This document shows, piece after piece, positions 15,692 through 63,392 of a stretch of 64,000 bases of DNA. Below the pieces are notes generated by a model that did not search any database, was not told the origin of the DNA, and saw only the letters and a program-made list of their open reading frames with translations. Origin of the DNA: a virus; the IMG/VR virus record IMGVR_UViG_3300035183_000733, positions 26,496 to 90,495 of that record; one strand, given 5' to 3'. Position numbers and translations under genes: made by a program. Every line of letters begins with the position of its first letter. Positions within the stretch are counted from its first letter, which is position 1.

Positions 15692-15762
15692 GACCCTGTA
15701 GCTCAAGGGTAGAGCGCTGGTCTCTAAAACCGGGGTTGCGGGTTCGAATCCCGTCAGGGTCT
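15692..15762 (+). tRNA. suppressor tRNA, anticodon CTA (reads UAG amber)
   Basis: clean 71-nt cloverleaf: GACCCTG-TA-GCTC-AAGGGTA-GAGC-G-CTGGT-CTCTAAA-ACCGG-GGTT-GCGGG-TTCGAAT-CCCGT-CAGGGTC-T. Confidence 0.85.
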
Positions 15763-15788
15763 CATAAATAAAGTGAAGGAATAAGAAT

Positions 15789-31979: not shown

Positions 31980-32699
31980 TTACTGAGCAACAGCGTTAGA
32001 AACGAGATTGCTCAGCGTGTTCGAGAACTCGGTGCATAAATCCATGGTAGCAACAACGTCGCCCTCGCAGTATTTCTTTATGCCCTCGTGGTCTCCGGCA
32101 TAGTAGCTAAGGTGCACGCGGTTGGCCTGCATCTCAGCCTTAGGCGATGCGATGCCGAACACGGCCGACATTGTGTCGAGCGATGTGAAGCTCTCCTGCC
32201 ATGCGCCTCCGCTCCAGAACTTGGCGATGTCCATGAACTTTAGGTCCCAAGGCTTCTTGTCGTACACGGTGATTATGCCGGACGGCTTGATCTTGTTTAT
32301 GAGCATGCGCTTCCAAAGGAACGGAACGTCAAACCTCTCTATGGTGTGCCCACCGAGGGTGTGCCCGGTTGCGTAAGCGTTGTTTAATACGATGTTGGTC
32401 TTTTTGAGAATGTCGAGCTCGTCGCCCCCGTAGAACGAGTTGATCTTGTACTCGCCGGACGAATCCCACTGGCCGAACGTTACGCACACAACACGACCGA
32501 ACTCGGGATGCAACCCGGACTTCAACTTCCACATCTCGTCGACCCCGAGATCTTTGTTCTCGGGGTATCTTTCCCTCAGCCAATCTGTTCTTTTGTGCCA
32601 GAGCTCGGCGAGGCGGGGATGAGCGACCGTCAGGTCGTCGTAGGTAGAGACGATACCTGCTGTCTCAATATCTACAATTACGAGTTTCTTTAAATCCAT
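31980..32699 (-). CDS. DnaQ-like 3'-5' exonuclease (DEDDy)
   Basis: Exo I VIVDIETAG, Exo II HTIERFDVPFL, Exo III YCEGDVVATMDL. Confidence 0.75.
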   Translation of the reverse strand: MDLKKLVIVDIETAGIVSTYDDLTVAHPRLAELWHKRTDWLRERYPENKDLGVDEMWKLKSGLHPEFGRVVCVTFGQWDSSGEYKINSFYGGDELDILKKTNIVLNNAYATGHTLGGHTIERFDVPFLWKRMLINKIKPSGIITVYDKKPWDLKFMDIAKFWSGGAWQESFTSLDTMSAVFGIASPKAEMQANRVHLSYYAGDHEGIKKYCEGDVVATMDLCTEFSNTLSNLVSNAVAQ

Positions 32700-39950: not shown

Positions 39951-39952
39951 TT

Positions 39953-42046: not shown

Positions 42047-42051
42047 TTATA

Positions 42052-43137: not shown

Positions 43138-43283
43138 CAGCCTACCTGTATTGTAACTATTTCGGCCACTTGGGTGAACGTGTACGCAGAGCCGTCGAGG
43201 CTTATGCCGACAATAGTGCCGGGGGTCGTGTCTGCGACCTCGAGCACAAATTCTGACGGATCAAAAACTATGTCGTTGATCAT
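43137..43283 (-). CDS. small ORF (48 aa) between fibre genes
   Basis: ATG at 43283; its TGA overlaps the ATG of the next gene; below the ORF-track cut-off. Confidence 0.25.
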   Translation of the reverse strand: MINDIVFDPSEFVLEVADTTPGTIVGISLDGSAYTFTQVAEIVTIQVG

Positions 43284-43289
43284 GTTCTA

Positions 43290-45404: not shown

Positions 45405-45405
45405 C

Positions 45406-46173
45406 TTAGTCTTTCATTATTTTGAGGTGCACAGTAACTCTCGTTATAGTTGATACTGAGTCGATGTTAAAGGCGAATATGTCGCCGGCATTGACCGTAG
45501 TATCCGTCCACCCCGTTAGGTTCGTGTTCCTGTTCTTTATCTGCGATACGAGGCGAGGCTTATCGCTGCCCGGTATAGAATCGGCGACAGTCGGCGGATA
45601 GTTGTCGTACGTGTCCTTCCACACGTCCACCTGGATGTCGCCTATTTGGTCGGCGAAAACTACCCACGCTACTATGGTACCAGAGAACGGCACGGTCACG
45701 TACGCTTTAGTTCCTATGGTCAGAGGGTTTGCTCCGTTGTCAAGACCGAACCCGATCGAACCGACCTTTATGTTCTGCCCAGATTCCCCGGTAACTCGTA
45801 TCTCACCAAGAGAGTTCATTACCATCCATCCGGCGGCGTCGCTGAACACGAGCTCTTCCCCTATCTCGAGGTAAACCTTCATCAGCGTACGTTGGTCGAC
45901 TCCATTGAGGAGCTCAATAGTTACCGTATGCGGTGCCGTATCGACATTAGCTACACTTATGTACTTTATGTTCCTGTAGAACGGCGACACAGGCGACGAA
46001 ACTGCAGTAACAGGCGTTGTACCATTCAACGATCCGTCCTGACTCCCTGGAGTGAACGCCGGATTGACCACGCGTATATCGTCATACGACGTTACGAATA
46101 CAGGCTCGCTCGTCGTCGCCGTAGCGTCCGAGTATATCCTAATGCTCTTCGAGGTCGTATCTAAACGGATCAT
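45406..46173 (-). CDS. fibre-cluster protein carrying the MIRLDT N-terminal module
   Basis: MIRLDTTSKSIRIYSDATATTSEPVFVTSYDDI. Confidence 0.55.
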   Translation of the reverse strand: MIRLDTTSKSIRIYSDATATTSEPVFVTSYDDIRVVNPAFTPGSQDGSLNGTTPVTAVSSPVSPFYRNIKYISVANVDTAPHTVTIELLNGVDQRTLMKVYLEIGEELVFSDAAGWMVMNSLGEIRVTGESGQNIKVGSIGFGLDNGANPLTIGTKAYVTVPFSGTIVAWVVFADQIGDIQVDVWKDTYDNYPPTVADSIPGSDKPRLVSQIKNRNTNLTGWTDTTVNAGDIFAFNIDSVSTITRVTVHLKIMKD

Positions 46174-46188
46174 ATTTTATATATTTTC

Positions 46189-47727
46189 TTATAGTCCGAG
46201 GCTGTTTATTATCATAGCGAGTATACCAGCATCAAATCCGCTGAAACCAGAGGCGCCGGAGAACCCGCTCACGCCGGAGAACCCGCTCACGCCGGAGAAC
46301 CCTGAGGCGCCGAAGTATCCGCTGAAACCAGAGGTGCCCGATAAACCGCTCGTCCCACTCTCTCCCGAGAAACCGCTCGTCCCACTCTCTCCCGAGAATC
46401 CTGAGGCTCCGCTGAATCCTGAGACTCCTGAGTAACCGCTCAAACCAGAGGTGCCCGAGAAACCAGAGGCGCCCGAGAAACCGCTCACCCCGCTGAAACC
46501 CGAAAATCCAGAGGCTCCAACGAAAGACACCGGCGAGTGAACGTGTGTAGCGTTTGTAAACCCTTCAACGTATAGACTCACCGTTATATTAGACACAGAA
46601 GTGGTCTTAGCATAATACTTGACGAGTATCCTATCCGTGAGGTCGAGGTCGAACTCGCCCTGTAATATCTCTTTAGAATAGAGTGCTACGACCGCGCCGT
46701 TTATCTCGGCAGTCTCAGCACTGAATAAAGGTGTCTCCGTTCCGACGAAATCCCTCTTGTACACGCGTATAACTATTCGCGTGTCTCCAACTGGGTTGTC
46801 GACCGAAGAGTAAGTATCGAATATCCACGAACCACCAGATATGTAAAGCTGGTCTGGGTTAGACGGTAAGGTCAAGAATTGCTGGATAAGAACCTCGCCT
46901 GTCGTATTATTACACACCGCGGTGAATGAACTCTCTGGATCTATAGAATCGGGATTGATATTCAATTGCCTGAAACCAACTATATCAGAGGCATCGTTCC
47001 TCAGGTAGTATAATGCACCACCGGCTACACCATTGACGCCGGAAAATCCGGAAGCGCCGTCAACACCAGAAAATCCAGAAAATCCAGAGACTCCGGACAT
47101 ACCATCCTGTCCATAGTAACCTGATGAACCTGATATTCCGCTGAACCCGGACGTCCCGCTCGCTCCGCTCACACCCGATATGCCACTTGCGCCGGACTCA
47201 CCAGAGAAACCCGACGTACCGGAGAATCCTGATACTCCGCTGAATCCGCTCACACCACTGAACCCTGATACGCCCGATGATCCACTCGTGCCGCTTAGAC
47301 CAGATGTGCCGGAAAACCCACTCGTTCCGGAAGTACCGCTGAATCCAGACGTGCCGGAGAATCCTGATACTCCGCTGAATCCGCTCACACCGCTGAACCC
47401 TGATACGCCCGAGAAACCACTCACGCCCGAAGTACCACTCAATCCGGACGTTCCGGAAATACCGGAAGTGCCGGAGAACCCGGAGGTTCCACTGAATCCT
47501 GAAGTTCCACTCGCGCCGACAAAACTGCCGCTATCGAGCCACTTGACCCCGTCGCCAGTGGTCATAAGTATTTGGCCGGATATACCGGACGAGCCGTCGC
47601 CGTCGACGAGCGTCGAATTAAGCGCCAGAGGTCCGGACATTGCATCACCCGCCTTGTTCAACTTTGAATCAAGATCGGCCTGCAGTCCATCTATCTGTCG
47701 AATGGGTATTTGACTTTTTGGTGTCAT
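46189..47727 (-). CDS. tail-fibre protein with collagen-like GXS tracts
   Basis: N-terminus ..[16 protein letters not shown].. then two GXS tracts around a globular domain. Confidence 0.7.
47180..47440. repeat. about 135-nt in-frame tandem duplication inside the fibre gene
   Basis: gtgccggagaatcctgatactccgctgaatccgctcacacc.ctgaaccctgatacgcccga occurs at 47213 and 47348. Confidence 0.7.
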
Positions 47728-52196: not shown

Positions 52197-52505
52197 TCAC
52201 ACGAACGGGTTTCGCCCGTCCGCAATCTTGTACCAAGTCTTACCGCCGGATTCACGAGTCTTCTCAAAGGTCCCGTCCGACAGCATCTCGTTTATGTGCT
52301 TCTCGTGCTTGGTTCCCTTCCAGCTTGCAACGCCGGCAGCGTCACACCATATCCCGTTGAACGTCTGCTCTGAGAACTCTTGCGCCTTCATGTTCTTGAG
52401 AACATAGACGTAGAGTTCATACATCACATCCATCTTGGTCGGGTAACCCCGACGAGTCTTCCACATTCCGAGTAGGTACTTGAATGGTACTTTGTCAGTA
52501 TTCAT
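52197..52505 (-). CDS. hypothetical protein
   Basis: ORF abutting uvsX. Confidence 0.4.
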   Translation of the reverse strand: MNTDKVPFKYLLGMWKTRRGYPTKMDVMYELYVYVLKNMKAQEFSEQTFNGIWCDAAGVASWKGTKHEKHINEMLSDGTFEKTRESGGKTWYKIADGRNPFV

Positions 52506-53782
52506 TACTCAGTGTCGATTTGTTTGTCAAACTCCGTTAGGTCCTCACTGTCAACGTGGTCTGGGAACTTGAACTCGTTCTGAATTACGTTCTCGTCGAG
52601 CTGTTTGATCACCTCATGAGTGAATACGAGCTTGTTGAACAGCTGGCTACCGCTTGATAGCGATTTGCCGAGGTGCTTCACACACCAGCGCCCTGTGTCC
52701 TTTTGCACGAACACGAGCTCCTCCGTGATAGTCTTCTTGATCTCCCCGGTCTCCTTGTCTACGTCGTCGTACGTGTATGTGAACGGATGGCCGTTCTTTA
52801 CGCCTTCCTTCTCCGCCTCCTTCTTAGTGTAGATCTTGCCCCTGTCGATTCCGCACGCCTCCCAGTTCACGTACTCCTCAAGTCCAACATAAGGGTTCAT
52901 ACCGCCAACGAAACTGACGTGCATGCTTATGTTCTTCGGGATCACGTTCCTGCTCTTGCGCGGACGGACGTTAAGGATTACTCCGGTCTTAACCTTGTCC
53001 ACTCCCTCGGTCTCGAACTTCTTAGACATAAATAGGAGCGAAGACATTGCGAATATCGGACCATCGCCACCGGCAGACTCTTTAGTAGGGCCTGTGTAAG
53101 AACCGATACCACCTATGGTCGTGTGGTTGGTGCAAATCAATGGGATCTTGTTAGCGGCGAGGTCGAGCGTTATGGCGCGGAACATCGCGCGGAGCTGCTT
53201 GGCTTTGAGACCCATATCCATCGCGGTCTTGCCTTCGAGCGCGTCGTTAATCTCCTTCTCAGTGCTCAACATACCGAGAGAGTCGAGGAACAGCGCGATC
53301 TTCGGGTTGTGGCCGGCCTCGCGAGCCTCCTGTACACCCTTGATCACCTGCATGGTGAATATCTTGAACTCGTTAACGGTCTTGATAGGCTGGTACCTCA
53401 TGCGCATCGTGTCGATGCCGAACTTCTTAACAGTCACGCGATCAACAGCAGCCTCCGTCTCGCAGTAGATGCAATCGTAGTTTGCTTTCTGAAACTCACG
53501 AACGAAGTTCAAGCACAAGTAGGTCTTGCCCGTCTCGGGATCCCCAACAAGACCGAGACTCCTGCTGTTCGGTATACCGCCGAGCAGCGAGCCCGACAGA
53601 ACCGCATTGAGTAGGTAGTTGCCCGTGTTTATGTACTCAGAAACCTCCGAAAAGGTGTTGTGCTCTATGACCGAACCAAGCTCGAAACCTGGTATCTTAC
53701 TGAGCTTCTTGTCAAAATCGAGGAAAGAAAATCCTCCACCTGAATTTGCCGCCGAAGCAGCTTCTGTTTTCTTCTTAGCCAT
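52505..53782 (-). CDS. uvsX: UvsX-like RecA-family recombinase
   Basis: Walker A GDPETGKT; FLDSLGMLSTEKE closely matches T4 UvsX FIDSLGNLASKKE; ICTNHT. Confidence 0.85.
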   Translation of the reverse strand: MAKKKTEAASAANSGGGFSFLDFDKKLSKIPGFELGSVIEHNTFSEVSEYINTGNYLLNAVLSGSLLGGIPNSRSLGLVGDPETGKTYLCLNFVREFQKANYDCIYCETEAAVDRVTVKKFGIDTMRMRYQPIKTVNEFKIFTMQVIKGVQEAREAGHNPKIALFLDSLGMLSTEKEINDALEGKTAMDMGLKAKQLRAMFRAITLDLAANKIPLICTNHTTIGGIGSYTGPTKESAGGDGPIFAMSSLLFMSKKFETEGVDKVKTGVILNVRPRKSRNVIPKNISMHVSFVGGMNPYVGLEEYVNWEACGIDRGKIYTKKEAEKEGVKNGHPFTYTYDDVDKETGEIKKTITEELVFVQKDTGRWCVKHLGKSLSSGSQLFNKLVFTHEVIKQLDENVIQNEFKFPDHVDSEDLTEFDKQIDTE

Positions 53783-53801: not shown

Positions 53802-54413
53802 TTATTTATTTGTGCTTGGGTTGTCTTTCTTTATTATTACGTGTCCTTGCTGCTTTGTTTCGGCAGGTTTATCGCCTTTAAAATCAAGGAAGAACTCGAT
53901 AGATTGCGGGGCACTCATCGGCTGCACAGGCACGATGTCGAGCCCTATGGTTTGCGCCTGGACGCGCCTGGACGCGCCTGACCATTGCAGCTTCACCTTG
54001 CGTGGGAATACCTGGCGCCATGCCTTCATGAACCGCAACACGTACTTGTTGGTGTACCACGAGTTGTTAACGTGAAGAACGAACGCGCCCCAGTTTGTCT
54101 TCGGCACCGGAACGTACTCGGTGTTGGTGCTGAATATGCCCCACGAGCTGTCAAAAATCTTTACGACCATCCTCGTCCAAGTGCTGTCGTCCTGGTTCCA
54201 CCTGTAAATCCTCGCGGACTTGCACATTTCGACGAACACGTGTTCCCTGTACTTGTACTCCCAGCGCTTGCCGGTTTTAGTCACGTACACGAAGTTGTCA
54301 GAATCCGCGTCTGCGTCCAGTGTCATAGGATTACTCGTCATCGGGCAATACAGACCTGTCGGCAGTATTACTCTGCGGTGGAACTTTAGGTATTTCTCTG
54401 CGATGTTGCTCAT
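53802..54413 (-). CDS. hypothetical protein
   Basis: ORF; contains a short gacgcgcctg x2.5 tandem. Confidence 0.5.
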   Translation of the reverse strand: MSNIAEKYLKFHRRVILPTGLYCPMTSNPMTLDADADSDNFVYVTKTGKRWEYKYREHVFVEMCKSARIYRWNQDDSTWTRMVVKIFDSSWGIFSTNTEYVPVPKTNWGAFVLHVNNSWYTNKYVLRFMKAWRQVFPRKVKLQWSGASRRVQAQTIGLDIVPVQPMSAPQSIEFFLDFKGDKPAETKQQGHVIIKKDNPSTNK

Positions 54414-55714
54414 GCGAATGGGTCGTAATCATTTAGGTTGTCCTCCGACTTATCGTCATCCGACTTCTTCAAGTCGGTGACGTCCGTCAAACGCTGAAGT
54501 CCAACCGGTATCTCGGTGTGTCCCATGGCCACCATGATCCTATTTATCGGGTCAAGAATAGTTTTAGAGAACTGCTCGTCGTAATCTATGGCAGGCGCGA
54601 ACTCGTACGGATACATACCCGGTATGTAAGCGAACACGTTCTCCTCCGCGTTCTTGTGCTTGGTTTTTGCGTAGTAGAACTTGACCTTGTCGCCAGCCCT
54701 GATGAGCTGGTACTTAGACTTGTACTTGGACTGATTAAGGGTGAAGTTGTAGTAACCAGAAGCGCGGACGTGAATAGGTGTCTGCTTGCCAGTCTCGAAT
54801 GCAGTTGTGTCATTCAGGATGTACTTCCCGTAGTCGTTGATGCTCCGGCCCATCGAGATCTTCTCAGGGTCCGCCATCTTGAACTCCTCCTTTATTTTTC
54901 GGAGAATCGTCACCATCTCGTTCTTGTTCAAAGACTTCTTCTTAGTGAACACATATTTCACCAGCTCCTTGAGCTTCTCGCGAGCGAACGCCGGTGTCGA
55001 ACTCTGCGCCAACTCAACTCCCTTAAATATAATGTGAGACAGAGACTCCATGGCTATGCCGGACTCCCACACCTCGTTTATCAGGTATTTCTTCTTAGCG
55101 AGCCATATACCGGACTCGGAGATGTTTTCAAGCTCAAAGTCCATGTGGTTCTTGGTGTTCCACTTCTCAGCGTACTTATCGAAGCACTTGTTGAGATAGG
55201 AGGCGAGCCTGTGCTCGTTGATTTCGAGTATGAGTTGCTTTGGGTCCCCGGTCCAATTACACGACTCCACAACCTCCTCAAACGACACGTAGCAAGAATC
55301 CGTATCCGAATAGATGTTCACTGGGCGCTTCACCTGCCTAACCTCGTAGTCTATGCCAAGCTTCGCGTGAAGCTCCGTATCCTTATGCCAAAATTCGTTG
55401 AAGTACTGGTTGAGCCTCTCCTCAGCGTACTTGATGAGGTTTTGACCCTGCAACGTGATGGTCTCCGCAACCTCAGGGTTGAAGCACACCAGCCACTTGT
55501 TACCGAGCGCCCCGTATATGGAGTTGATGGTTAGCTTGATGGCCTGTTCCTCGTTTTTCCATTCGTTGGAGAGCTGCTTCATGCGCTCTATCTCCGCCTT
55601 GATTTCTTCTACGGTGGCGGTGGAAGGATCTATAGTAGTGTATGTAAACATCGAGAATATTTTGTTAATTTTATGGTGTTCAAATTGATTTGTTTCTCGT
55701 GGATTTCCAACCAA
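54410..55714 (-). CDS. family-B DNA polymerase, C-terminal portion only (motif B, motif C, thumb)
   Basis: KLTINSIYGALGNK (motif B) and IYSDTDSCYV (motif C); ORF opens with TTG 75 aa before motif B with TAA just upstream; no exonuclease or motif A. Confidence 0.8.
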   Translation of the reverse strand: MVGNPRETNQFEHHKINKIFSMFTYTTIDPSTATVEEIKAEIERMKQLSNEWKNEEQAIKLTINSIYGALGNKWLVCFNPEVAETITLQGQNLIKYAEERLNQYFNEFWHKDTELHAKLGIDYEVRQVKRPVNIYSDTDSCYVSFEEVVESCNWTGDPKQLILEINEHRLASYLNKCFDKYAEKWNTKNHMDFELENISESGIWLAKKKYLINEVWESGIAMESLSHIIFKGVELAQSSTPAFAREKLKELVKYVFTKKKSLNKNEMVTILRKIKEEFKMADPEKISMGRSINDYGKYILNDTTAFETGKQTPIHVRASGYYNFTLNQSKYKSKYQLIRAGDKVKFYYAKTKHKNAEENVFAYIPGMYPYEFAPAIDYDEQFSKTILDPINRIMVAMGHTEIPVGLQRLTDVTDLKKSDDDKSEDNLNDYDPFA

Positions 55715-56097
55715 CAGAAGATGAAAACTATCTTACGCACCGGATGACGTCAGGTCGCGTTGAGATAGGTGTGTACCGCGTAATTTTCGGGTACAGGGTC
55801 AGAGCCGGCTACGTCGGCTCAGGGTTTTACCACATAGACTACTGTTGCGGGGCAGACCAAGATTGGATTAGACGGGTGTATGCTGCCGTGCTTACCGTGC
55901 TTACTGCACGCGAAGAGCAAGATGCCTTCAAGGGGTTCCCGTCACAGACATACAAGCCAATGTCAGAGGATTATGTCTGTTTCGTAAGCCTGTGCCAAAT
56001 GATGAAGGGCGTCCCACCGGTGAAAGTCGAAATTAACGTCCCGCCTGTGGATAAGAACAAAATATTCAGCATTGAGTCGATGTTCAATGTTCAATGA
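55690..56097 (+). CDS. hypothetical ORF in the polymerase-proximal gap (low confidence)
   Basis: ORF only. Confidence 0.25.
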   Translation: MFLVDFQPTEDENYLTHRMTSGRVEIGVYRVIFGYRVRAGYVGSGFYHIDYCCGADQDWIRRVYAAVLTVLTAREEQDAFKGFPSQTYKPMSEDYVCFVSLCQMMKGVPPVKVEINVPPVDKNKIFSIESMFNVQ

Positions 56098-56354
56098 ATA
56101 AATCGGTGAAGATACAGATACTCGAGTATTTGGGGCATTTCATGTTGTGTTGTGGACACAGACTTGTCCGGTGGAGAAGAAGACACTAAATATAGTGAAA
56201 CAAAAGTTAGGTGTGTAAACGTATCAGACGAGCCTTAAGGTATCCTAAGTGAGGTGTCCGTTGGACTGCGGCTAAGCGTAGCTAAAATATCTTAGATTTC
56301 CGGGAATCTGAGACTATTTTCTTACGTTCGAAAATGGAAAATGTATAAATTAAG

Positions 56355-56380
56355 AAGCCGACAAATAAGTCGGCTTTTTC
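56355..56380. terminator. rho-independent terminator
   Basis: AAGCCGAC-aaataa-GTCGGCTTTTTC. Confidence 0.55.
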
Positions 56381-56381
56381 T

Positions 56382-57041
56382 TTAATGATGGTTGTCTATA
56401 GCAGTTGGGACCCGCTTGTCCATTATCTTCTTCAGTTCATCGAAGCTATACGGATAAAGATTGTTAGTATCAACTCCTACGTCCATGGTCCTTGCATTTG
56501 GTATCTCTGCAAGAGATCCGTGACTGTGTCCATAAAGGAACCACGAGCCCCTGTGTGACTGGTCCCACACCCTTGCCGAGTAGTGGAACATGCAGACCAT
56601 CTGCCCGTCTATTAGGACCTCCATGTACGAGTCGCACCTCTTGAAATATCTTCTGAGGTTCTCGTCCCTACGGATGTTGTGGTCATGATTACCGTATATC
56701 AGGTACACGTTCTTGCACACGAGCCTGTCCATAAATATCCCGACGTTCTCGCGTCCGCCGAACGCCACGTCGCCGAGAATGAACAGCACGTCCGTCTGTC
56801 TCACCGTCTCATTATACCTGCTCACGAGTGCCTCGTTCATGTCCTCGAGCGTCGCGAAATCTCTCAGTCCATTCTCTTTACAAAACGCGCTACGCGCATC
56901 TCTGTCAGTCCATTTGTTGTATGGTGTAGGCCAGTCCTCTGGCTTAATCCATGAACTAACCCCAGCCGTGATGTTTTTGTGTCCGTAATGACTATCGGCC
57001 GAGAAATATACTTGGCATTCGTCAGTTTGTTGTATTTTCAT
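56382..57041 (-). CDS. calcineurin-like metallophosphoesterase
   Basis: FSADSHYGH, ILGDVAFGG, GNHDHN, GHSHG motifs. Confidence 0.75.
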   Translation of the reverse strand: MKIQQTDECQVYFSADSHYGHKNITAGVSSWIKPEDWPTPYNKWTDRDARSAFCKENGLRDFATLEDMNEALVSRYNETVRQTDVLFILGDVAFGGRENVGIFMDRLVCKNVYLIYGNHDHNIRRDENLRRYFKRCDSYMEVLIDGQMVCMFHYSARVWDQSHRGSWFLYGHSHGSLAEIPNARTMDVGVDTNNLYPYSFDELKKIMDKRVPTAIDNHH

Positions 57042-57137
57042 TATTCAATTTTTTAATATTTACCGGCGCACAAGCCGGTGAAATTCCTAACAAAGATACT
57101 ATTTGTTTTTGTGTTAATCCTTGTTCGAAATATAATT

Positions 57138-57767
57138 TTAAATTAGCACTTTTTTACCCGGAGGCAGCTTGAGCGAGAACGATCTCCGGTGGTGCACCGT
57201 GTAACCGTAGTCCGCTATTGCTTGGAGATGGGCCTCCGTTCCATACCCCTTGTTATTTTCCCACAGATACTGGGGGAACTGTTCGCCGAGCTTCGTCATC
57301 AACCTGTCTCTGTACACCTTCGCAATAACCGAGGCTGCCGCTATGTGGAGATACTTGTCGTCGCCTTTGACCACAGTGACGTGAGGTATGTTTCCATACG
57401 GCTTGAACTGATTGCCATCCGACACGATGAGGCTCACGCTATCGTGCCACATAGATAGGCTGTCTATGGCAAGGTGCATCGCCTTTATAGAAGCGTTCAG
57501 GATGTTCATCTCGTCTATCTTGGACGGCGAAACGACCCCGATGCCATACCCAATCACCATGTCATTATCCTCGGCGGTCAAGAACTCGTACGCCTTGTCC
57601 CGCGCCTTCTCGGTCATCTTCTTGGAATCGCGGATGCCATCGTACTTGAAGTTATCGCCGAGTATGACGGCAGCGGCCACTACCGGACCTGCGCAGCATC
57701 CTCGCCCAACCTCATCGGTGCCTATCTCGGTGCCGGAATCGTATTTAAGTTTAAGTTCCATTTCCAT
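57138..57767 (-). CDS. rnhB: ribonuclease HII
   Basis: GTDEVGRG ... DSKKMT ... HHRRSF; aligns along the whole of E. coli RnhB; start reset to Met 78 because upstream residues are not protein-like. Confidence 0.85.
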   Translation of the reverse strand: MEMELKLKYDSGTEIGTDEVGRGCCAGPVVAAAVILGDNFKYDGIRDSKKMTEKARDKAYEFLTAEDNDMVIGYGIGVVSPSKIDEMNILNASIKAMHLAIDSLSMWHDSVSLIVSDGNQFKPYGNIPHVTVVKGDDKYLHIAAASVIAKVYRDRLMTKLGEQFPQYLWENNKGYGTEAHLQAIADYGYTVHHRRSFSLKLPPGKKVLI

Positions 57768-57834
57768 TAAATGAAAAAAGGCCCTAAGTATTTTACCCAA
57801 GCCTCTTGAATTATCAATACAAATATACACATTT

Positions 57835-58548
57835 TTAGAACGGCAGTTCCGGTTCTGCCTCAATAACGCGGAAATAAGAATTGTTATCCCAGTACACATC
57901 CTCTCCGGAATCGAGGTCAAAACTGTCCCTGGAAACACGCACATACACCTTTCCAAATCTGTGCACATCCGAATCTGACGTATCAGCAAACTGTTCAAGA
58001 TCCATCTTTAGAATCCTATCGAGCTTCTGCTCGAACTCGCGCATCAAGGTTGCCTTTAGGTCCGCAACCCTCAGGTCGCTTCTTTCCCACTTGCCCACCA
58101 TCACTCCTGCAGGCTCTATGATAGAGTCCCTGTCGAATCTCGCATCGGCAATGCGATCCAGCTCAATCTTAGTCAGTATCGTCCTCGTCAGTTTGAAGTT
58201 CACCTCGGACGTCGTAGGCGGCAGCAAATAAACACCATGGTTCATGTTCTGCATGTTCTCCTTGAACACCCCAGGTGTGAATGCGATGGAGTATATGCGT
58301 ACCTTACTTCTCGGCTTGAACATGTTGTTAAGCTGAACGGTCACGCACAGGTTACCGTCATCGACCGAACCGTAGACCGAATCGTAGAATGGACTGTCGA
58401 GCACTTCGATCTCGCATCCCGAGAAAAGAGGCATTCTCTCGAGCGCGTCAACAACCCCCCTCAGCTGGTCGCCCTGGTACGTGAATGTGTCGGCGATTGC
58501 CGGACGCATATCCTCATACAGCTTCTGTATTTCGTTATCCTTGAGCAT
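57835..58548 (-). CDS. hypothetical replication-module protein
   Basis: ORF. Confidence 0.45.
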   Translation of the reverse strand: MLKDNEIQKLYEDMRPAIADTFTYQGDQLRGVVDALERMPLFSGCEIEVLDSPFYDSVYGSVDDGNLCVTVQLNNMFKPRSKVRIYSIAFTPGVFKENMQNMNHGVYLLPPTTSEVNFKLTRTILTKIELDRIADARFDRDSIIEPAGVMVGKWERSDLRVADLKATLMREFEQKLDRILKMDLEQFADTSDSDVHRFGKVYVRVSRDSFDLDSGEDVYWDNNSYFRVIEAEPELPF

Positions 58549-59315
58549 CAGTCAACCCTCCCTATTACGATTAAAGTGTCAGACTCCTGTGACTTCACGA
58601 CGAGCTTCGAGTTACCTACCACAAAGGTCGAAATCTCTGGCTCCACCATAGAGAAGTGCTCGTTGAGGATAGCGAAATCTATGTTCGCGTCCTTTGGAAC
58701 ATTGCCGACCTCGTACTCGAACGACTTGCCCTTGAATACCACCTTGCCATCATTTATCTTGATGTTAAGAAAGTCCTTCACTGAGTCGATCTTACACAGT
58801 GAGTTGATCTTGGCGAAAGACTCCTTAGGAAACGGGAAATCAATGACCTTGTCGTCCATGGCAGCCTTCACGATGCGCTTAATCATCTCACTGCTAATGT
58901 ATGTCAACAGCGACAAGTCTGCGCACTCAACCCTGATCCTTAGTGAGTCTGTGTGGAATAGAATCTCAGTGCCAACGTACTCTTCGGATATTACCTCGTA
59001 CTTGATGTCGACGAAAATTTCGTCCGCCTCGGAGAAGTGGTTGAACACATTGATTATTTTGCCGATGTCGAACACCGCAACCTTCATTAGGTCAGCGGGC
59101 ACTTTGCCCTCCAAAACGTCACCTATCGCGAGCTTGGAGTACTTGACTATACACTTGTCGCCGGTGTACGACTTCGCCTGTATAGTATCCGGTGTTATCT
59201 CTATCAGCAGGTTCTTGTCAATGGTGGAGAACCTCTTGAGGAACGATATTAAGTTCGACGAGCTCTTGAGCTTGAACTTGGCGACGTTCGTCTTTGTTTT
59301 TGTAGCGGTAGCCAT
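58548..59315 (-). CDS. sliding-clamp-like protein (gp45-like), tentative
   Basis: size, position next to the topo/pol genes and N-terminal LKSSSNLISFLKRFSTI pattern reminiscent of T4 gp45. Confidence 0.4.
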   Translation of the reverse strand: MATATKTKTNVAKFKLKSSSNLISFLKRFSTIDKNLLIEITPDTIQAKSYTGDKCIVKYSKLAIGDVLEGKVPADLMKVAVFDIGKIINVFNHFSEADEIFVDIKYEVISEEYVGTEILFHTDSLRIRVECADLSLLTYISSEMIKRIVKAAMDDKVIDFPFPKESFAKINSLCKIDSVKDFLNIKINDGKVVFKGKSFEYEVGNVPKDANIDFAILNEHFSMVEPEISTFVVGNSKLVVKSQESDTLIVIGRVD

Positions 59316-59385: not shown

Positions 59386-60783
59386 TTAGTCCTCGTCCTC
59401 CTCGATTTCGTCCCCAGTCTCATCCTCGTCTTCACCGTTATACACCTCCACGCCGTCAATGCTCATAGGCTGGTCGTCGAAGAGCGGCACGGACTTCATG
59501 TTGATCTTACCCTTTGACACAAATGTCTTCTCGAGAGCCTTGCACTTCTTGAGCTGTTCCTCTATGGTTTTCTTCTGGTCGCGTATTTGCTTCTCGAGCT
59601 CCTTGATTTCCTCCTCCGTCTTCTTAACCGTCTCCGGTGACAGGGCGGTGAGCTTTATGTTATCGAGGCGTGCCGCTATTTTCTTGTTGTATTTTGATAT
59701 GAATACTTTGATCTCCTCGTTCTTGCGCTTCTTCTCCATCATGAACAACAAGAATTCCCTCTTGGCCCTCAAGTAGTCGAGCTCCTCATTGTACACGTGA
59801 AGGTCGTACACCATCCGGTTGTGTATGACGCGCTCCCTGTGCACCTTGAACTCGTCAAGGTAATCACTTATGCTCTCGTACTCTATGACGGAACCGTCCT
59901 TAACGAATATCAGACCCTCAACCACGACAAGCTTCGTCAGTTTCTCTATATCCTCGCACACCGCGGCAAACGTGGATTTATCCCTCCACCTGATGGTGAT
60001 GTCGACTTCCTTCTTGGAGTTGTTCTCTATCTTGATATAGTTGTCGCCGTGCTTCGCAAGCTTCTCGTGCATCCTTACTATGAACGAATCGTACTTCATG
60101 AGCGGCGGGAGATCACCAATGTGCATGGTCATCTTGGCGTCGTCTTTCTCGAACTGCCCCTCTATGAGCCAGGCCTTGTCGAGACCGTTGTGCTTCTTGA
60201 TGTTGCCCTTGAACCCAACGAAGTATGGTTTAAGCTGCTTGTTCTCGCCGTTCAAGTATTTTATTACGTCATCCATCTTACGAGGCAGGATGTTGGACCT
60301 GTACCCAACCGCGATACCGACGATGTGCGTGTACAACCCTATTGGCACATCGAGATTCAAGAACTCGAAATTACCTTCCATGTTCCTTACGTTTAACGGC
60401 GCGTACTTGTCCAGTATCTCTTTGATATGCGGGTCGCTCTTAACCTTTGTGTACCTGGTGGATGCCGGTCTCGGCCGCACCGGGCTTCCGAAGAATCCGT
60501 CACCTATTATCATGGAGCGCGAGCATCCGAATGGTCGAGCCAGTTTGTTTATAGCCTTCGACAAGCTCATATCGCCGTGGTGATACAGGCCCGTGGCCAT
60601 TACCGACCCAACGAGCGCGACTGTGGTCTGAAACCTCTCGGGCACGTGCAGCAGTATCAATCGCTGAACCGGAGTTATCGAATCGTAGAAGTTCGGGATG
60701 CCGCGACTCTGAATAACGTACATCGAGTACGTGCGGTAGTCCGTATTTATCTGCTCCTTAATTCCTATTGTAGTTATATCCAT
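59386..60783 (-). CDS. DNA topoisomerase II medium subunit (GyrA-like, T4 gp52-type)
   Basis: YSMYVIQSRGIPNFYDSITPVQRLIL matches the GyrA/ParC N-terminal signature with active-site Tyr region. Confidence 0.8.
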   Translation of the reverse strand: MDITTIGIKEQINTDYRTYSMYVIQSRGIPNFYDSITPVQRLILLHVPERFQTTVALVGSVMATGLYHHGDMSLSKAINKLARPFGCSRSMIIGDGFFGSPVRPRPASTRYTKVKSDPHIKEILDKYAPLNVRNMEGNFEFLNLDVPIGLYTHIVGIAVGYRSNILPRKMDDVIKYLNGENKQLKPYFVGFKGNIKKHNGLDKAWLIEGQFEKDDAKMTMHIGDLPPLMKYDSFIVRMHEKLAKHGDNYIKIENNSKKEVDITIRWRDKSTFAAVCEDIEKLTKLVVVEGLIFVKDGSVIEYESISDYLDEFKVHRERVIHNRMVYDLHVYNEELDYLRAKREFLLFMMEKKRKNEEIKVFISKYNKKIAARLDNIKLTALSPETVKKTEEEIKELEKQIRDQKKTIEEQLKKCKALEKTFVSKGKINMKSVPLFDDQPMSIDGVEVYNGEDEDETGDEIEEDED

Positions 60784-60853
60784 TTCTCTCTCTTATTACT
60801 TGTACAATTTGTTCGAAGAAGTACCTTCTTGACCTCCATCGATGTATTCCATG

Positions 60854-62662
60854 TTATTCAAATTCGTTTGACAACCATTTCTTTCTCGGTGCCGAGTCCA
60901 TACCGAATGCCATGTCCAGGAACTTCTTAGCATCCTCTCCACGCTGGATCTGTAACAATTGCTTGTTCGCCATTATGTGCTCCCAATCCTCCTCAGCAAG
61001 AGACCCGAGACCCTTGAGGAACCTAAGACCCTTGTACGATTTCTTCTTGCGCTGAAACTCCTCGAACTCTTTCTTGTCGAAGAAGTACTGCCTGCTTTTG
61101 CCCTCGTCTATAGACATGAGTGGAATCTTAAGCCTGTACAACTTGCCCTCGTCGATTATGTATGGGAACCACCTGTAGAACAAATTGACGAGCAGCGAGC
61201 AGATGTGCCCTCCGTCCTCGTCGGAATCGGACGCTATTATTATTCGCTTGTATGTGAAGTGGTTGCGCTTATTAGGGTCGAGGTCGAGGTCGAGTATCTG
61301 CATCAGTGCTACGATCTCCTCGTTGCCAGACAGGTCCGATACGGAGCGCACGTTGTTTATCTTACCCTTTAGCGAGTACACACCGTCAGTCTTCGTATCA
61401 CGCTTCTGCAGGATAGAACCCATAGCGGACTCGCCCTCGACTATGAACAGGTTCTCTATCCTCCCAGAGGGCGGGAAGTACTTGGAAGACTTCTTCATGT
61501 TTGTCTTCTTCTTAACGTTCCTGAGCTTGTTGACCTCGGTGGACATCTTACGGTCCTCAACCCTCTTCAGGATTTTCTGGAACAAGTCGGTTGTGTAGAA
61601 CTGCTGGAGCCCCCTTCTGAAGTTTTCTAATATGGTTCCCTCAACGTCGTCTCTCGTGGACGCGAGCCTGGTCTTGTTCTGGTCCTGGAACCTCACCAAT
61701 TTCGGCGGGAGGTTGAGCACGAAGAACGTCTCGTAGAAGTGGTGACCAAGCGTGTCGTCGAGCTCCTTGTTGATGTTCTCGTTTATGATCCTCTGATGTA
61801 TACCAGTACACATAGCAGAGTTCACGAACGACAAGGACCCAGACGAGTCATAGCTCTCGTACAGTATCAAGTGTCCGAGCTTTGATTTGTAGACAAATGC
61901 CGATGACGGGTAGAACGGCACGTCGAGCGCAAGCTTCTCGCCATCAAAGAACACCTCGAACTTAAGTGACGCAAGGAACTCGTCCTGCTTGAGGAGAAAA
62001 TTCTTGAATATCATCTGTGTCCTTATTATGTCCTTGTTCCATCTCGCCTTCTTGAATATATCCTTGCGCGGTATGAAACCAACCTTCGTGCCGGTAGTCA
62101 CCTGTATGCCCTTCGACACGGTTGTATTGTTGGACTTGAAGTTATTCCACTCCTTGTGAAAGTATGATTCTTTGTTACGCGTCTCAATGTAGAACTTGCT
62201 CGACAGCATGTTAACGAGCGCAGCACCAACTCCATTAGTACCTATAAGCGCGTCATTTATGTTGTCGTTGTTGAAGTTGGAACCGGCCCTCAGCTGGCTT
62301 ATCGCGGTCTCGATGTTGGTCAGGCCCGACTTCTTGTTTATCGCGGTCCCGTTATGGAATCCTTCTCCGCCGTCGATAATCTCCACGAGGTTGTTCGTCG
62401 AATCGATGGTAACCTTTATGGACTTCATCTTTCCCTTCAGTCGCTTTGCCTCGTCCACCGCGTTGTCGAGTATCTCGTGAAACAGCTTGTAAAAACCAAC
62501 TGATATGTCGTGTTGCTCCATGACTATCCTGCCATCGCGGACGATTGGTATCTTCTCCTCGGTTAGCTCCACTGCACCGACATACATAGTCGGTCTCTGT
62601 AATACGTGCTCGTGCTCGTCGAGTACTACTATTTCCTTATTATTAGACTGTTTGCTTGACAT
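60854..62662 (-). CDS. DNA topoisomerase II large subunit (GyrB-like, gp39+gp60 fused type)
   Basis: GHKL ATPase motifs (LHEILDNAVDE, DGGEGFH), GTKVGFIP, Toprim IIASDSDEDGGHI. Confidence 0.85.
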   Translation of the reverse strand: MSSKQSNNKEIVVLDEHEHVLQRPTMYVGAVELTEEKIPIVRDGRIVMEQHDISVGFYKLFHEILDNAVDEAKRLKGKMKSIKVTIDSTNNLVEIIDGGEGFHNGTAINKKSGLTNIETAISQLRAGSNFNNDNINDALIGTNGVGAALVNMLSSKFYIETRNKESYFHKEWNNFKSNNTTVSKGIQVTTGTKVGFIPRKDIFKKARWNKDIIRTQMIFKNFLLKQDEFLASLKFEVFFDGEKLALDVPFYPSSAFVYKSKLGHLILYESYDSSGSLSFVNSAMCTGIHQRIINENINKELDDTLGHHFYETFFVLNLPPKLVRFQDQNKTRLASTRDDVEGTILENFRRGLQQFYTTDLFQKILKRVEDRKMSTEVNKLRNVKKKTNMKKSSKYFPPSGRIENLFIVEGESAMGSILQKRDTKTDGVYSLKGKINNVRSVSDLSGNEEIVALMQILDLDLDPNKRNHFTYKRIIIASDSDEDGGHICSLLVNLFYRWFPYIIDEGKLYRLKIPLMSIDEGKSRQYFFDKKEFEEFQRKKKSYKGLRFLKGLGSLAEEDWEHIMANKQLLQIQRGEDAKKFLDMAFGMDSAPRKKWLSNEFE

Positions 62663-63005: not shown

Positions 63006-63392
63006 TCAGATTAAAATCCGCATGTGGCGCTTGAAGAAGCGTTTCCACTCTATAAAAGTTTCCTTGTGGTTCATCGTGCCACCAACGTATAGGTACTGAT
63101 ATTGGTGAACCATCTCGTGCGCAAGTGTGGATATGAAGAGCTCCCGGTTGTCGATTGTCTCGTTGATGCTTATCACTATCTCGTTACCATTGTCGCCCTC
63201 ACAGAGACCCCATGCGCCGCGTAAACGGCGGATCTTGAATACCGGCATTGGGAGCTTGTTCCTGAATGCGGCCCTGTTGATCACCCCAAACCAGTACACG
63301 ATGTGACGATCGGTGAACTGGAAGTCATTCCCGTTCTTGTATCGCGTCACGTGCGACTTAACCTTCTTCTTCGCTGCCGATGAGCTAAGCAT
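63006..63392 (-). CDS. SprT-like zinc metalloprotease domain protein
   Basis: LAHEMVHQYQ (HExxH) preceded by RRLRGAWGLC, typical of the SprT domain. Confidence 0.6.
   Translation of the reverse strand: MLSSSAAKKKVKSHVTRYKNGNDFQFTDRHIVYWFGVINRAAFRNKLPMPVFKIRRLRGAWGLCEGDNGNEIVISINETIDNRELFISTLAHEMVHQYQYLYVGGTMNHKETFIEWKRFFKRHMRILI

What the first reader, a model, noticed from the sequence alone, without database searches (positions are those of the whole stretch)
54410..56381. Family-B DNA polymerase present only as its C-terminal half; the N-terminal exonuclease/palm part is not adjacent
ORF 54410..55714 contains motif B (KxxxNSxYG) and motif C (YSDTDS) and a thumb. It opens with TTG only 75 aa upstream of motif B, with an in-frame TAA immediately before. 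Upstream on the same strand there is a 290-nt ORF-free structured-looking segment (56098..56381), then a phosphoesterase and RNase HII, but no exonuclease or motif-A sequence. Bipartite gp43 (43A/43B) is known in some T4-like Aeromonas phages. Here the partner is either elsewhere in the genome, or the gene is interrupted by a mobile element or intron-like segment, or the polymerase is truncated. A separate DnaQ-like proofreading exonuclease sits at 31980..32699.
Basis: partly seen in the sequence, partly recalled or inferred. Interest (0 to 1): 0.65.

Follow-up and report, generated by a model that had tools for sequence, protein, structure and literature searches.

The report
C-terminal subunit of split phage polymerase
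This gene is the intact C-terminal subunit of a T4-type DNA polymerase that is naturally split in two at the tip of its "fingers"; the same split occurs in a very large group of big phages, so it is a normal member of a known kind and not a broken gene.

Summary
Window 54410-55651 (-) encodes only the C-terminal part of a family-B, T4 gp43-type DNA polymerase: second finger helix, motifs B and C, KKxY and thumb. No exonuclease or motif-A sequence was found in the window or in the recovered flanks.

It is neither a truncation, nor an intron or intein interruption, nor an assembly error. Over 1,600 protein clusters are stand-alone C-halves of about 380-415 aa. A matching family of about 1,500-1,800 clusters contains stand-alone N-halves of about 455-496 aa.

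In 51 viral contigs both halves lie on one strand, a median of 4.3 kb apart. The usual order is N-half, ribonucleotide reductase, sliding clamp, C-half, UvsX. The break falls at the fingertip, around RB69 residues 503-522, where the known 43A/43B splits of T4-like Aeromonas and Acinetobacter phages lie.

Cultured phages PAU and MA9V-1 share the layout. In Lak and other megaphages the halves are over 100 kb apart on opposite strands.

The gap upstream holds a real opposite-strand gene and a terminator, not an intron. The partner N-half of this genome was not located. By synteny it should lie upstream of a DNA ligase gene, beyond the window end.

The parts
54410..55651 (-). Gene for the C-terminal subunit (413 aa) of a split T4 gp43-type family-B DNA polymerase: second finger helix, C-terminal palm, thumb and C-terminal tail
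   Evidence: Pfam PF00136 positions 134-450/453. Aligns to Syn19 gp43 478-818 and to RB69 gp43 554-815. The start at M22 is conserved in relatives and in gene calls. 61 synonymous versus 4 non-synonymous codon differences against L015.
55652..55714 (-). In-frame upstream extension to a TTG, 21 codons; probably not translated
   Evidence: No relative has residues aligned here. It overlaps the 5' end of the + strand gene. An in-frame TAA lies 7 codons further upstream.
55511..55537 (-). Motif B, KLTINSIYG; the lysine corresponds to RB69 K560
55295..55312 (-). Motif C, YSDTDS, carrying the catalytic aspartates
   Evidence: invariant D137-T138-D139-S140 (positions in the 434-aa ORF) in the family alignment
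55082..55099 (-). AKKKYL, the KKxY primer-terminus contact motif of the palm
   Evidence: K207, K208 and Y210 are invariant
55690..56097 (+). Opposite-strand gene (135 aa, TTG start) of unknown function, divergent from the polymerase gene with a 38-nt spacer; a lineage-specific insertion
   Evidence: 22 synonymous versus 5 non-synonymous codon differences against L015. 319 representative clusters at E<=1e-3, mostly about 130 aa, aligning from residue about 5. No Pfam, PHROG or PDB match. Absent at this position in L002, L102 and L018. GC skew flips sign here.
56098..56381 (.). Spacer between convergent gene ends, with a terminator hairpin at 56355-56376 just after the phosphoesterase stop; not an intron
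   Evidence: Terminator scan. No Rfam family at gathering or permissive thresholds. Folding z-scores -1.8 (- strand) and -3.75 (+ strand). L015 has about 120 nt, holding most of a 58-aa ORF, where the window has about 59 nt.
58548..59315 (-). 255-aa protein, probable gp45-like sliding clamp. In most relatives its gene directly abuts the C-half gene and lies between the two polymerase halves.
   Evidence: Homologues lie immediately upstream of the C-half in most of the 37 loci that hold one. Family profile versus phage PAU gp109: hhalign probability 97%, E 6e-11. PAU gp109 was assigned as a T4 gp45-like clamp in PMC4889955. Direct PCNA hits are only E 0.35-0.62. The single-sequence structure model was unusable.
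56382..57041 (-). Metallophosphoesterase gene, inserted between clamp and C-half in this sub-lineage
   Evidence: Pfam PF00149; phrog_547 phosphoesterase, E 5e-43
57138..57998 (-). RNase HII gene (likely true start near 57767, giving about 209 aa), inserted between clamp and C-half in this sub-lineage
   Evidence: Pfam PF01351, E 2e-34, residues 92-275 of the 286-aa ORF; gene calls of 209-210 aa
53802..54413 (-). 203-aa gene of unknown function whose ATG overlaps the C-half TGA stop (ATGA), consistent with co-transcription or translational coupling
   Evidence: Sequence read directly; no family match
52505..53782 (-). UvsX/RecA-like recombinase. It follows the polymerase gene as in T4-like cyanophages, which shows the C-half sits at the ancestral gp43 locus.
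   Evidence: PF00154 on the called gene; gp43-uvsX order in Syn19; C-half followed by UvsX in relatives
59386..62662 (-). Two type II topoisomerase subunit genes (465 aa DNA_topoisoIV; 602 aa Toprim). They are part of the backbone ligase - topoisomerase - clamp - C-half that is shared with lineages where the N-half lies upstream of the ligase.
   Evidence: Pfam on called genes; synteny with L223-L230 and others

Best explanation
Window 54410-55651 (-) encodes the C-terminal subunit of a two-subunit, T4 gp43-type family-B replicative DNA polymerase.

The ancestral gene is broken at the tip of the fingers domain, at about RB69 residues 503-522. The C-subunit carries the second finger helix with motif B, the catalytic motif C, the KKxY motif, the thumb and the C-terminal tail. 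A separate subunit of about 460-470 aa, encoded elsewhere in the genome, carries the N-terminal domain, the 3'-5' exonuclease, motif A and the first finger helix.

The two polypeptides are inferred to assemble non-covalently into one active polymerase-exonuclease that works with the clamp encoded nearby.

Shown here: the anatomy of the gene, its intactness and purifying selection, the clade-wide existence of matching stand-alone N- and C-halves on the same contigs, and the position of the break.

Inferred: that this genome has an N-half; that the N-half lies upstream of the DNA ligase gene, roughly 16-19 kb upstream of the C-half and beyond the window end; that the two subunits associate; and that the C-half is transcribed from its own promoter downstream of the terminator at 56355-56376.
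For: 1. Anatomy. PF00136 is matched only from profile position 134. The ORF is collinear with Syn19 gp43 478-818. K60 of the ORF corresponds to RB69 K560. Motifs B, C and KKxY are intact and invariant in the family.

2. Selection. 61 synonymous versus 4 non-synonymous codon differences against L015.

3. The split is clade-wide. 1,678 homologous clusters were found, and the top 120 are all 379-423 aa apart from three intein-bearing ones. N-half families comprise 1,477 and 1,835 clusters; nearly all of the 120 listed in each are complete proteins of 453-496 aa carrying PF03104 plus the N-terminal part of PF00136.

4. Both halves occur in one genome. In LR756500.1 they are 10.4 kb apart. In 51 loci (50 IMG/VR contigs plus LR756500.1) they are on the same strand, with a median gap of 4.3 kb. 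In lineages sharing the window's backbone the order is N-half, RNR, ligA, Toprim, TopoIV, clamp, C-half, UvsX, with 10.9-14.3 kb between the halves.

5. Megaphages have exactly one N-half and one C-half, over 100 kb apart on opposite strands.

6. Cultured phages PAU (gp105/gp110) and MA9V-1 (_135/_138) have the same two genes with a clamp-like gene between them.

7. Position of the break. N-halves end at about RB69 residue 503. Against an unsplit 877-aa relative (L242), N-halves end at residues 476-481 and the window protein starts at about residue 486, which leaves no room for extra domains.

8. Precedent. Fingertip-split gp43 of T4-like phages gives active polymerase (PMC3061061, PMC2988022). 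The split PhiKZ polymerase forms a stable 1:1 complex (PMC13648687).
Against: The N-half of this particular genome was not found. It is absent from the window, from 10 kb beyond the window start (L101) and from 5.8 kb beyond its end (L016).

The closest relatives with data (L015, L002, L102, L018) also show no N-half within 10-18 kb upstream.

Gene content upstream of SprT differs between the window's genome (L016) and its close relative L015, so the synteny-based position is uncertain.

No promoter for the C-half was identified: sigma-70-like hits are at chance level and the Bacteroidota-type motif is not enriched.

Subunit association and activity are untested for this clade.
Confidence: 0.88

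Rival explanations
1. The ORF is a truncated, decaying remnant (pseudogene) of a polymerase gene.
For: Only the C-terminal half is present, with an in-frame stop upstream.
Against: 61 synonymous versus 4 non-synonymous codon differences against a relative, L015. All catalytic motifs are intact. More than 1,600 clusters share the same stand-alone architecture and the same start. The stop overlaps the next gene's start in an operon-like way.
Confidence: 0.02
2. One continuous gene is interrupted locally by an intron, intein or mobile element, so the N-terminal exon lies just upstream and is joined by splicing.
For: A 730-nt gap lies upstream (55652-56381), and part of it folds better than shuffled sequence on the + strand. 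Inteins and homing endonucleases do interrupt this gene in some relatives.
Against: No group I or II intron or any other RNA family matches. No N-terminal coding sequence occurs anywhere in 64 kb or the flanks. The gap holds a selected opposite-strand gene and a terminator. The next upstream genes are conserved, unrelated genes.
Confidence: 0.02
3. The two halves are joined covalently after translation by a split intein, as in Nanoarchaeum PolB.
For: The halves are encoded at distant loci, which is the setting where split inteins are used.
Against: Neither half has room for intein fragments. N-halves end, and the C-half begins, within about 5-9 residues of each other on an unsplit relative. 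Pfam finds only PF03104 and PF00136 in the halves; PF14890 appears only as internal cis-inteins in a few C-halves.
Confidence: 0.02
4. The C-half works without a canonical N-half, using the stand-alone exonuclease at 31980-32699 for proofreading.
For: That protein matches PF10108, 'exonuclease related to the exonuclease domain of PolB', and phrog_403, 'DNA polymerase exonuclease subunit'.
Against: It cannot supply motif A, whose aspartate is one of the two catalytic metal ligands (established for family-B polymerases; PhiKZ D562 in PMC13648687). Its homologue in another huge phage (L236) sits in a genome that also has a canonical N-half. It has no detectable similarity to gp43 N-halves.
Confidence: 0.03

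Closest known systems
Bicistronic gp43 (43A/43B) of T4-like Aeromonas phages 44RR, 31, 25, 65 and Acinetobacter phage 133 (Petrov et al. 2006, 2010, as described in PMC3061061 and PMC2988022)
   Same: The polymerase family is the same (T4 gp43 type) and the break is in the same place, the tip of the fingers domain. Two independently translated polypeptides result, and in those phages they co-purify and are active.
   Different: There the cistrons are 2 bp to 3 kb apart and separated by an untranslated spacer, a homing endonuclease gene or an intron. Here at least 13.5 kb of ordinary replication genes intervene (topoisomerase, clamp, RNase HII and others), and the split is shared by a much larger and only distantly related clade (about 35% identity to cyanophage gp43).
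Sphingomonas phage PAU gp105 / gp109 / gp110 and Chryseobacterium phage MA9V-1 _135 / _137 / _138 (GenBank annotation; clamp assignment in PMC4889955)
   Same: The two-gene polymerase breaks at the same point and has the same order: N-half, a few genes, clamp-like gene, C-half, then a roughly 420-460-aa gene at the position where UvsX follows the C-half in the window.
   Different: Identity is only 24-30%. The halves are 2.2-2.4 kb apart there. In the window's lineage more genes have accumulated between them and the N-half is out of reach.
PhiKZ (chimallivirus) DNAP-N gp82 / DNAP-C gp50 (PMC13648687)
   Same: A family-B polymerase is encoded by two distant genes. Motif A is on the N subunit and motif C on the C subunit, and the two form a stable 1:1 complex with a clamp-related accessory protein.
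   Different: The break is in a palm insertion, not the fingertip. The polymerase belongs to a very divergent clade with large insertions, and the accessory protein is an RNase H-clamp fusion.
Split PolB of Methanobacterium thermoautotrophicum and the engineered fingertip-split Pfu polymerase (PMC3061061)
   Same: They show that family-B polymerases tolerate being made as two polypeptides, including from genes 85 kb apart (Mth) and when split at the fingertip (Pfu).
   Different: These are archaeal enzymes. The Mth split is in the palm, and the Pfu split is artificial.

Membership tests
Family-B DNA polymerase, T4 gp43 type (PF00136 + PF03104) | Motif B KxxxNSxYG in the second finger helix | tested here: met
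   KLTINSIYG at 55511-55537; the lysine aligns with RB69 K560
Family-B DNA polymerase, T4 gp43 type (PF00136 + PF03104) | Motif C (Y/F)xDTDS with the catalytic aspartates | tested here: met
   YSDTDS at 55295-55312; invariant in the family alignment
Family-B DNA polymerase, T4 gp43 type (PF00136 + PF03104) | KKxY motif and thumb domain | tested here: met
   AKKKYL at 55082-55099. HMMER aligns the ORF to RB69 through residue 815, and the family alignment continues to the C-terminus.
Family-B DNA polymerase, T4 gp43 type (PF00136 + PF03104) | Exo I-III and motif A (DxxSLYPS) in the same polypeptide | tested here: not met
   The Pfam match starts at profile position 134. Nothing was found in the window by regex, tblastn or HMM. 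The protein is therefore a subunit, not a complete polymerase.
Fingertip-split gp43 (43A/43B type) | [quoted passage not shown] | tested here: met
   N-halves end at about RB69 residue 503. The C-half M22 corresponds to about RB69 residue 522. On the unsplit L242 protein the two ends are about 5-9 residues apart.
Fingertip-split gp43 (43A/43B type) | A separate cistron for the N-terminal part exists in the same genome | not testable with these tools
   It is absent from the window and the recoverable flanks, and the rest of the source genome could not be read. The feature is met in relatives: LR756500.1, 50 IMG/VR contigs, megaphages, PAU and MA9V-1.
Fingertip-split gp43 (43A/43B type) | The two cistrons are adjacent (2 bp to 3 kb apart) | tested here: not met
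   No N-half within at least 13.5 kb upstream or 64 kb downstream. Relatives range from 1 kb to about 280 kb apart.
Fingertip-split gp43 (43A/43B type) | The two products associate and reconstitute polymerase activity | not testable with these tools
   Shown biochemically only for phage 25/44RR and PhiKZ in the literature.
Intron- or intein-interrupted gene | A group I/II intron RNA or an intein domain at the junction | tested here: not met
   No Rfam hit at gathering score. Only weak, unrelated sRNA-like hits with permissive filters. Pfam finds only PF00136 in the protein.
gp45/PCNA-like sliding clamp (for the 255-aa neighbour at 58548-59315) | Homology to a recognised clamp, and clamp fold | tested here: inconclusive
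   The family profile matches PAU gp109 with hhalign probability 97%, and PAU gp109 was assigned as a gp45-like clamp in PMC4889955. Direct profile hits to archaeal PCNA reach only E 0.35-0.62. The structure model had pLDDT 35.

The most novel reading that the evidence does not exclude
The fingertip split may be an ancient, clade-defining character of a very large assemblage of big phages: PAU-like jumbo phages, many aquatic T4-like phages, Lak and other megaphages. In that assemblage the replicase would be an obligate heterodimer whose two genes have been pulled progressively apart. The series runs from about 1-5 kb with ribonucleotide reductase and clamp genes between them, through 10-15 kb, to over 100 kb on opposite strands. 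One lineage (L242) has an unsplit gene, which is either the ancestral state or a re-fusion. I found no paper in the searchable library that describes this pattern.
Probability: 0.35. Interest if true: 0.45.

Novelty: new member of a known kind. Interest (0 to 1): 0.3.

Why it matters
For annotation, half-length polymerase genes in huge-phage genomes should be called subunits of a split replicase, not pseudogenes or fragments, and the partner gene should be sought genome-wide.

For biology, the clade offers hundreds of natural examples of a family-B polymerase cut at the fingertip, next to the nucleotide-binding residues. An engineered cut at this position in Pfu polymerase altered substrate tolerance (PMC3061061).

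It also offers a graded series for studying how two halves of an essential enzyme stay co-regulated as their genes drift apart. None of this changes what is known about how such polymerases work.

Tried and rejected
1. Searching the window for the N-half by regex, tblastn with two queries and an HMM found nothing.

2. Looking for introns with Rfam at gathering and permissive thresholds found nothing relevant.

3. Finding this genome's own N-half failed.
- Walking out from both window ends gave only +5.8 kb and -10 kb, with no N-half.
- The source contig (0.2-1 Mb class) was never returned by the look-ups.
- Two N-half protein searches list only the top 120 hits, and neither list could be tied to this genome.
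- Four look-ups of N-half candidates (P0345, P0366, P0302, P0332) hit other phages.
- A degenerate DNA pattern scan and two profile scans of IMG/VR did not return the 482-kb relative's N-half.

4. Nucleotide search of the region against 50,697 phage records gave no match.

5. Clamp fold of the 255-aa protein: the single-sequence AlphaFold model was unusable, pLDDT 35. tblastn against phages found only LR756500.1. PHROGs and Pfam gave nothing.

6. Function of the + strand 135-aa gene: no hit in Pfam, PHROGs or PDB profiles.

7. Promoter for the C-half: sigma-70-like hits are at chance level, and TAnnTTTG is not enriched, 33 observed versus 29.7 expected.

8. TAG recoding, suggested by a CUA-anticodon tRNA: reading through TAG does not merge the recognisable genes in this window.

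9. Identity with 'Jug' gut jumbo phages (PMC12880540) was considered because of contig sizes. It was not pursued, because that paper's split polymerase genes are attributed to endonuclease insertions.
Full report
**What is at the coordinates.**
The minus-strand ORF 54410..55714 matches Pfam DNA_pol_B only over profile positions 134-450 of 453. It is collinear with residues 478-818 of Synechococcus phage Syn19 gp43. HMMER aligns its K60 to K560 of RB69 gp43 and carries on through the palm into the thumb.

Motif B (KLTINSIYG, 55511-55537), motif C (YSDTDS, 55295-55312) and the KKxY motif (AKKKYL, 55082-55099) are intact. They are invariant in an alignment of relatives.

That alignment, and the gene calls on three public contigs, place the real start at ATG 55651, which is M22 of the ORF and 38 residues before the motif-B lysine. 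The 21 codons back to the TTG have no counterpart in any relative. An in-frame TAA lies seven codons beyond the TTG.

The stop overlaps the start of the next gene (ATGA at 54410-54413). A UvsX/RecA gene follows at 52505-53782, the same gp43-uvsX order as in T4-like cyanophages.

**Is the N-terminal part really missing?**
Yes, within reach. Four tests found nothing: a motif regex; tblastn at E<=10 with Syn19 gp43 and with a megaphage N-half; and an HMM of 27 N-halves against every six-frame segment, where the best E-value was 1.1.

Public contigs that overlap the window extend it by 10 kb at the low end (L101) and 5.8 kb at the high end (L016). Neither carries the N-half.

The arrangement is not an assembly artefact. 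A second assembly is 100% identical across 55600-57100, and a third is 85-92% identical with the same layout.

**What lies in the gap.**
The stretch 55652-56381 is not an intron. Rfam finds only tRNAs in the window at gathering score. With permissive filters it finds only weak sRNA-like hits centred on a terminator hairpin.

55690-56097 on the plus strand is a genuine gene. Against the relative L015 it shows 22 synonymous and 5 non-synonymous codon differences. It has 319 representative homologues at E<=1e-3, mostly about 130 aa, aligning from residue 5 onward. No function could be assigned. GC skew flips sign over it.

It is absent at this position in more distant relatives, where the C-half follows its upstream neighbour within 15-250 nt. 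It is therefore a recent insertion.

56098-56381 is the spacer between the convergent ends of this gene and the phosphoesterase gene, with a terminator-like hairpin at 56355-56376. The spacer folds no better than chance on the polymerase strand (z -1.8) and better than chance on the plus strand (z -3.75). In L015 the corresponding spacer holds a further 58-aa ORF that the window lacks.

**The gene is functional, and the split is a property of a clade.**
Against L015 the C-half has 61 synonymous and 4 non-synonymous codon differences. A search of 5.8 billion proteins found 1,678 homologous clusters. The best 120 are all 379-423 aa, except three of 564-573 aa that carry an intein, and they sit on contigs of up to 399 kb.

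The closest records among 50,697 phage genomes are huge uncultivated phages and Prevotella Lak megaphages (39-53% identity), followed by cyanophage gp43 at 35%.

I read the 462-kb phage LR756500.1 in full. Its N-terminal half is a separate 472-aa ORF with Exo I and motif A. It lies 10.4 kb upstream of an intein-bearing C-half on the same strand.

That protein and a second N-half retrieved 1,477 and 1,835 clusters respectively. Apart from two shorter entries, the 120 listed in each are 453-496 aa with PF03104 plus the N-terminal part of PF00136.

In 51 loci (50 IMG/VR contigs plus LR756500.1) both halves lie on one strand, 1.0-10.4 kb apart with a median of 4.3 kb. A typical order is N-half, nrdB, nrdA, a 250-aa gene, C-half, UvsX.

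In megaphages there is exactly one N-half and one C-half, far apart and on opposite strands:
- LR756504.1: N-half at 255,869-257,323 (+), C-half at 538,028-539,173 (-).
- Lak-A2: N-half at 123,052-124,467 (-), C-half at 345,490-347,593 (+).

Cultured phages show the same thing in their GenBank annotation. Sphingomonas phage PAU has gp105 (487 aa) and gp110 (404 aa). Chryseobacterium phage MA9V-1 has genes _135 and _138. Both halves of PAU are collinear with the window's family from their first residues.

**Where the break is.**
N-halves end at about RB69 residue 503, and the window protein begins at about RB69 residue 522. This is the tip of the fingers domain.

One IMG/VR contig (L242) carries an unsplit 877-aa polymerase of this clade directly after the clamp gene. 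On it, N-halves end at residues 476-481, and the window's first residues (MFTYTTID) match residues 486-493 (TLTYSNIN).

Nothing is therefore lost at the junction, and there is no room for split-intein fragments.

Natural splits at this position are documented for gp43 of T4-like Aeromonas phages 44RR, 31, 25, 65 and Acinetobacter phage 133. There the cistrons are 2 bp to 3 kb apart and the products form an active enzyme (PMC3061061, PMC2988022). Pfu polymerase cut at the fingertip also remains fully active (PMC3061061). The distantly encoded halves of the PhiKZ polymerase form a stable 1:1 complex, with motif A on one subunit and motif C on the other (PMC13648687).

**The neighbour between the halves.**
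The 255-aa protein at 58548-59315 has homologues that directly abut the C-half gene in most of the 37 loci that hold one. Its family profile matches PAU gp109 with hhalign probability 97%. [quoted passage not shown]

Direct evidence is weak. Only sub-significant PCNA hits were found, and the single-sequence structure model was unusable. I treat the clamp assignment as probable.

In the window's sub-lineage a 237-aa gene, RNase HII, a phosphoesterase and the plus-strand gene have been inserted between the clamp and the C-half.

**Where the partner should be.**
The window's own genome, extended by L016, reads: ligA, several small genes with an HNH endonuclease, SprT, Toprim subunit, TopoIV subunit, clamp, 237 aa, RNase HII, phosphoesterase, [plus-strand gene], C-half, 203 aa, UvsX.

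At least ten other lineages share the backbone ligA, Toprim, TopoIV, clamp, C-half, UvsX at 36-51% identity. They place the N-half 2.9-5.5 kb upstream of ligA, usually followed by ribonucleotide reductase genes. This puts the two halves 10.9-14.3 kb apart.

By that synteny the N-half of this genome should sit about 16-19 kb upstream of 55651, some 8-11 kb beyond the window end, on the minus strand.

This is an inference of moderate strength. Gene content upstream of SprT differs between L016 and its close relative L015. The closer relatives L002, L102 and L018 show no N-half within 10 kb. I could not read the source contig, and all attempts to pick out this genome's N-half failed.

**Rivals.**
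- A pseudogene is excluded by selection, intact motifs and the size of the family.
- A local intron, intein or mobile-element interruption is excluded by the absence of any upstream exon and of any intron model, and by the coding content of the gap.
- Trans-splicing by a split intein is excluded by the lengths and ends of both halves.
- The stand-alone PF10108 exonuclease at 31980-32699 cannot supply motif A. In another huge phage it co-occurs with a canonical N-half.

**Verdict.**
This is a new member of a known kind, a fingertip-split gp43-type polymerase, and it is ordinary for its clade.

The breadth of the clade, the clamp gene between the halves, and the progressive unlinking of the halves up to hundreds of kilobases are worth a note. 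I found no paper in the searchable library that describes them. They are, however, visible in existing annotations and do not change the mechanism.

Noticed in passing
window 15692-15763 (+): One of 20 tRNA genes has the anticodon CUA, making it an amber suppressor; ARAGORN labels it tRNA-Pyl. TAG is the rarest stop among long frames (9 of 81). Reading through TAG does not merge recognisable genes in this window, so there is no sign of TAG recoding here, though late genes elsewhere in the genome might use it.
   Followed up: partly
window 55690-56097 (+): A small gene (135 aa, TTG start) lies 38 nt from, and divergent to, the polymerase C-half gene. It is under purifying selection and belongs to a family of at least 319 representative clusters of about 130-aa proteins, with conserved G34, R36, C52, G54 and P90. 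No Pfam, PHROG or PDB match was found, so its function is unknown.
   Followed up: partly
window 58548-59315 (-): A 255-aa protein conserved next to the C-half across the clade is probably the phage's gp45-like sliding clamp, through a 97% hhalign match to phage PAU gp109. It is not recognised by Pfam or PHROGs.
   Followed up: partly
L242 10001-12634 (IMGVR_UViG_3300000563_000024): An unsplit 877-aa polymerase of the same clade is located after ligA, topoisomerase and clamp. Its N-part is 52% identical to a split N-half and its C-part 50% identical to the window's C-half. It is either the ancestral state or a re-fusion, and it rests on a single contig.
   Followed up: partly
LR756504.1, LR756502.1, LR745206.1, LR756501.1, Lak-A2 MK250019.1 (record coordinates): In megaphages of 540-735 kb the two polymerase halves are over 100 kb apart, up to about 280 kb, and on opposite strands. 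Each genome has exactly one copy of each half.
   Followed up: partly
window 54413-54500 (-), C-terminus of the C-half: Most relatives end with a short hydrophobic tail (...LF), like the clamp-binding tail of T4-type gp43. The window's sub-lineage (P0001, P0002, P0004) instead has an acidic extension of about 25 residues ending in DYDPFA.
   Followed up: no
window 63006-63392 and beyond (L015 versus L016): Two otherwise closely related phages (85-92% nucleotide identity in the aligned region upstream of the C-half; clamp 99% identical in protein) have completely different gene sets upstream of the SprT-like gene. One has ligA and an HNH endonuclease; the other has OmpA, an ABC transporter and a GIY-YIG endonuclease. 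This marks a mosaic breakpoint.
   Followed up: no
window 31980-32699 (-): A stand-alone 239-aa 3'-5' exonuclease (PF10108, phrog_25228), unrelated to the missing N-half. A 34%-identical homologue lies near an AAA ATPase in another huge phage (L236).
   Followed up: partly
window 5530-7092 (+); 27168-28595 (-); 38520-47727 (-): A Glu/Gln-tRNA synthetase-like gene, a glutamate-synthase-domain gene, and a run of at least four collagen-repeat proteins of 361-697 aa. Together with the many tRNAs these fit a huge-phage genome.
   Followed up: no
L010 3783-7183 (LR756500.1); P0007, P0031, P0116: In some relatives the C-half gene is itself interrupted after motif C by an intein, with a large endonuclease-like ORF. 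Mobile elements therefore do target this gene, but at a different site from the clade-wide split.
   Followed up: no
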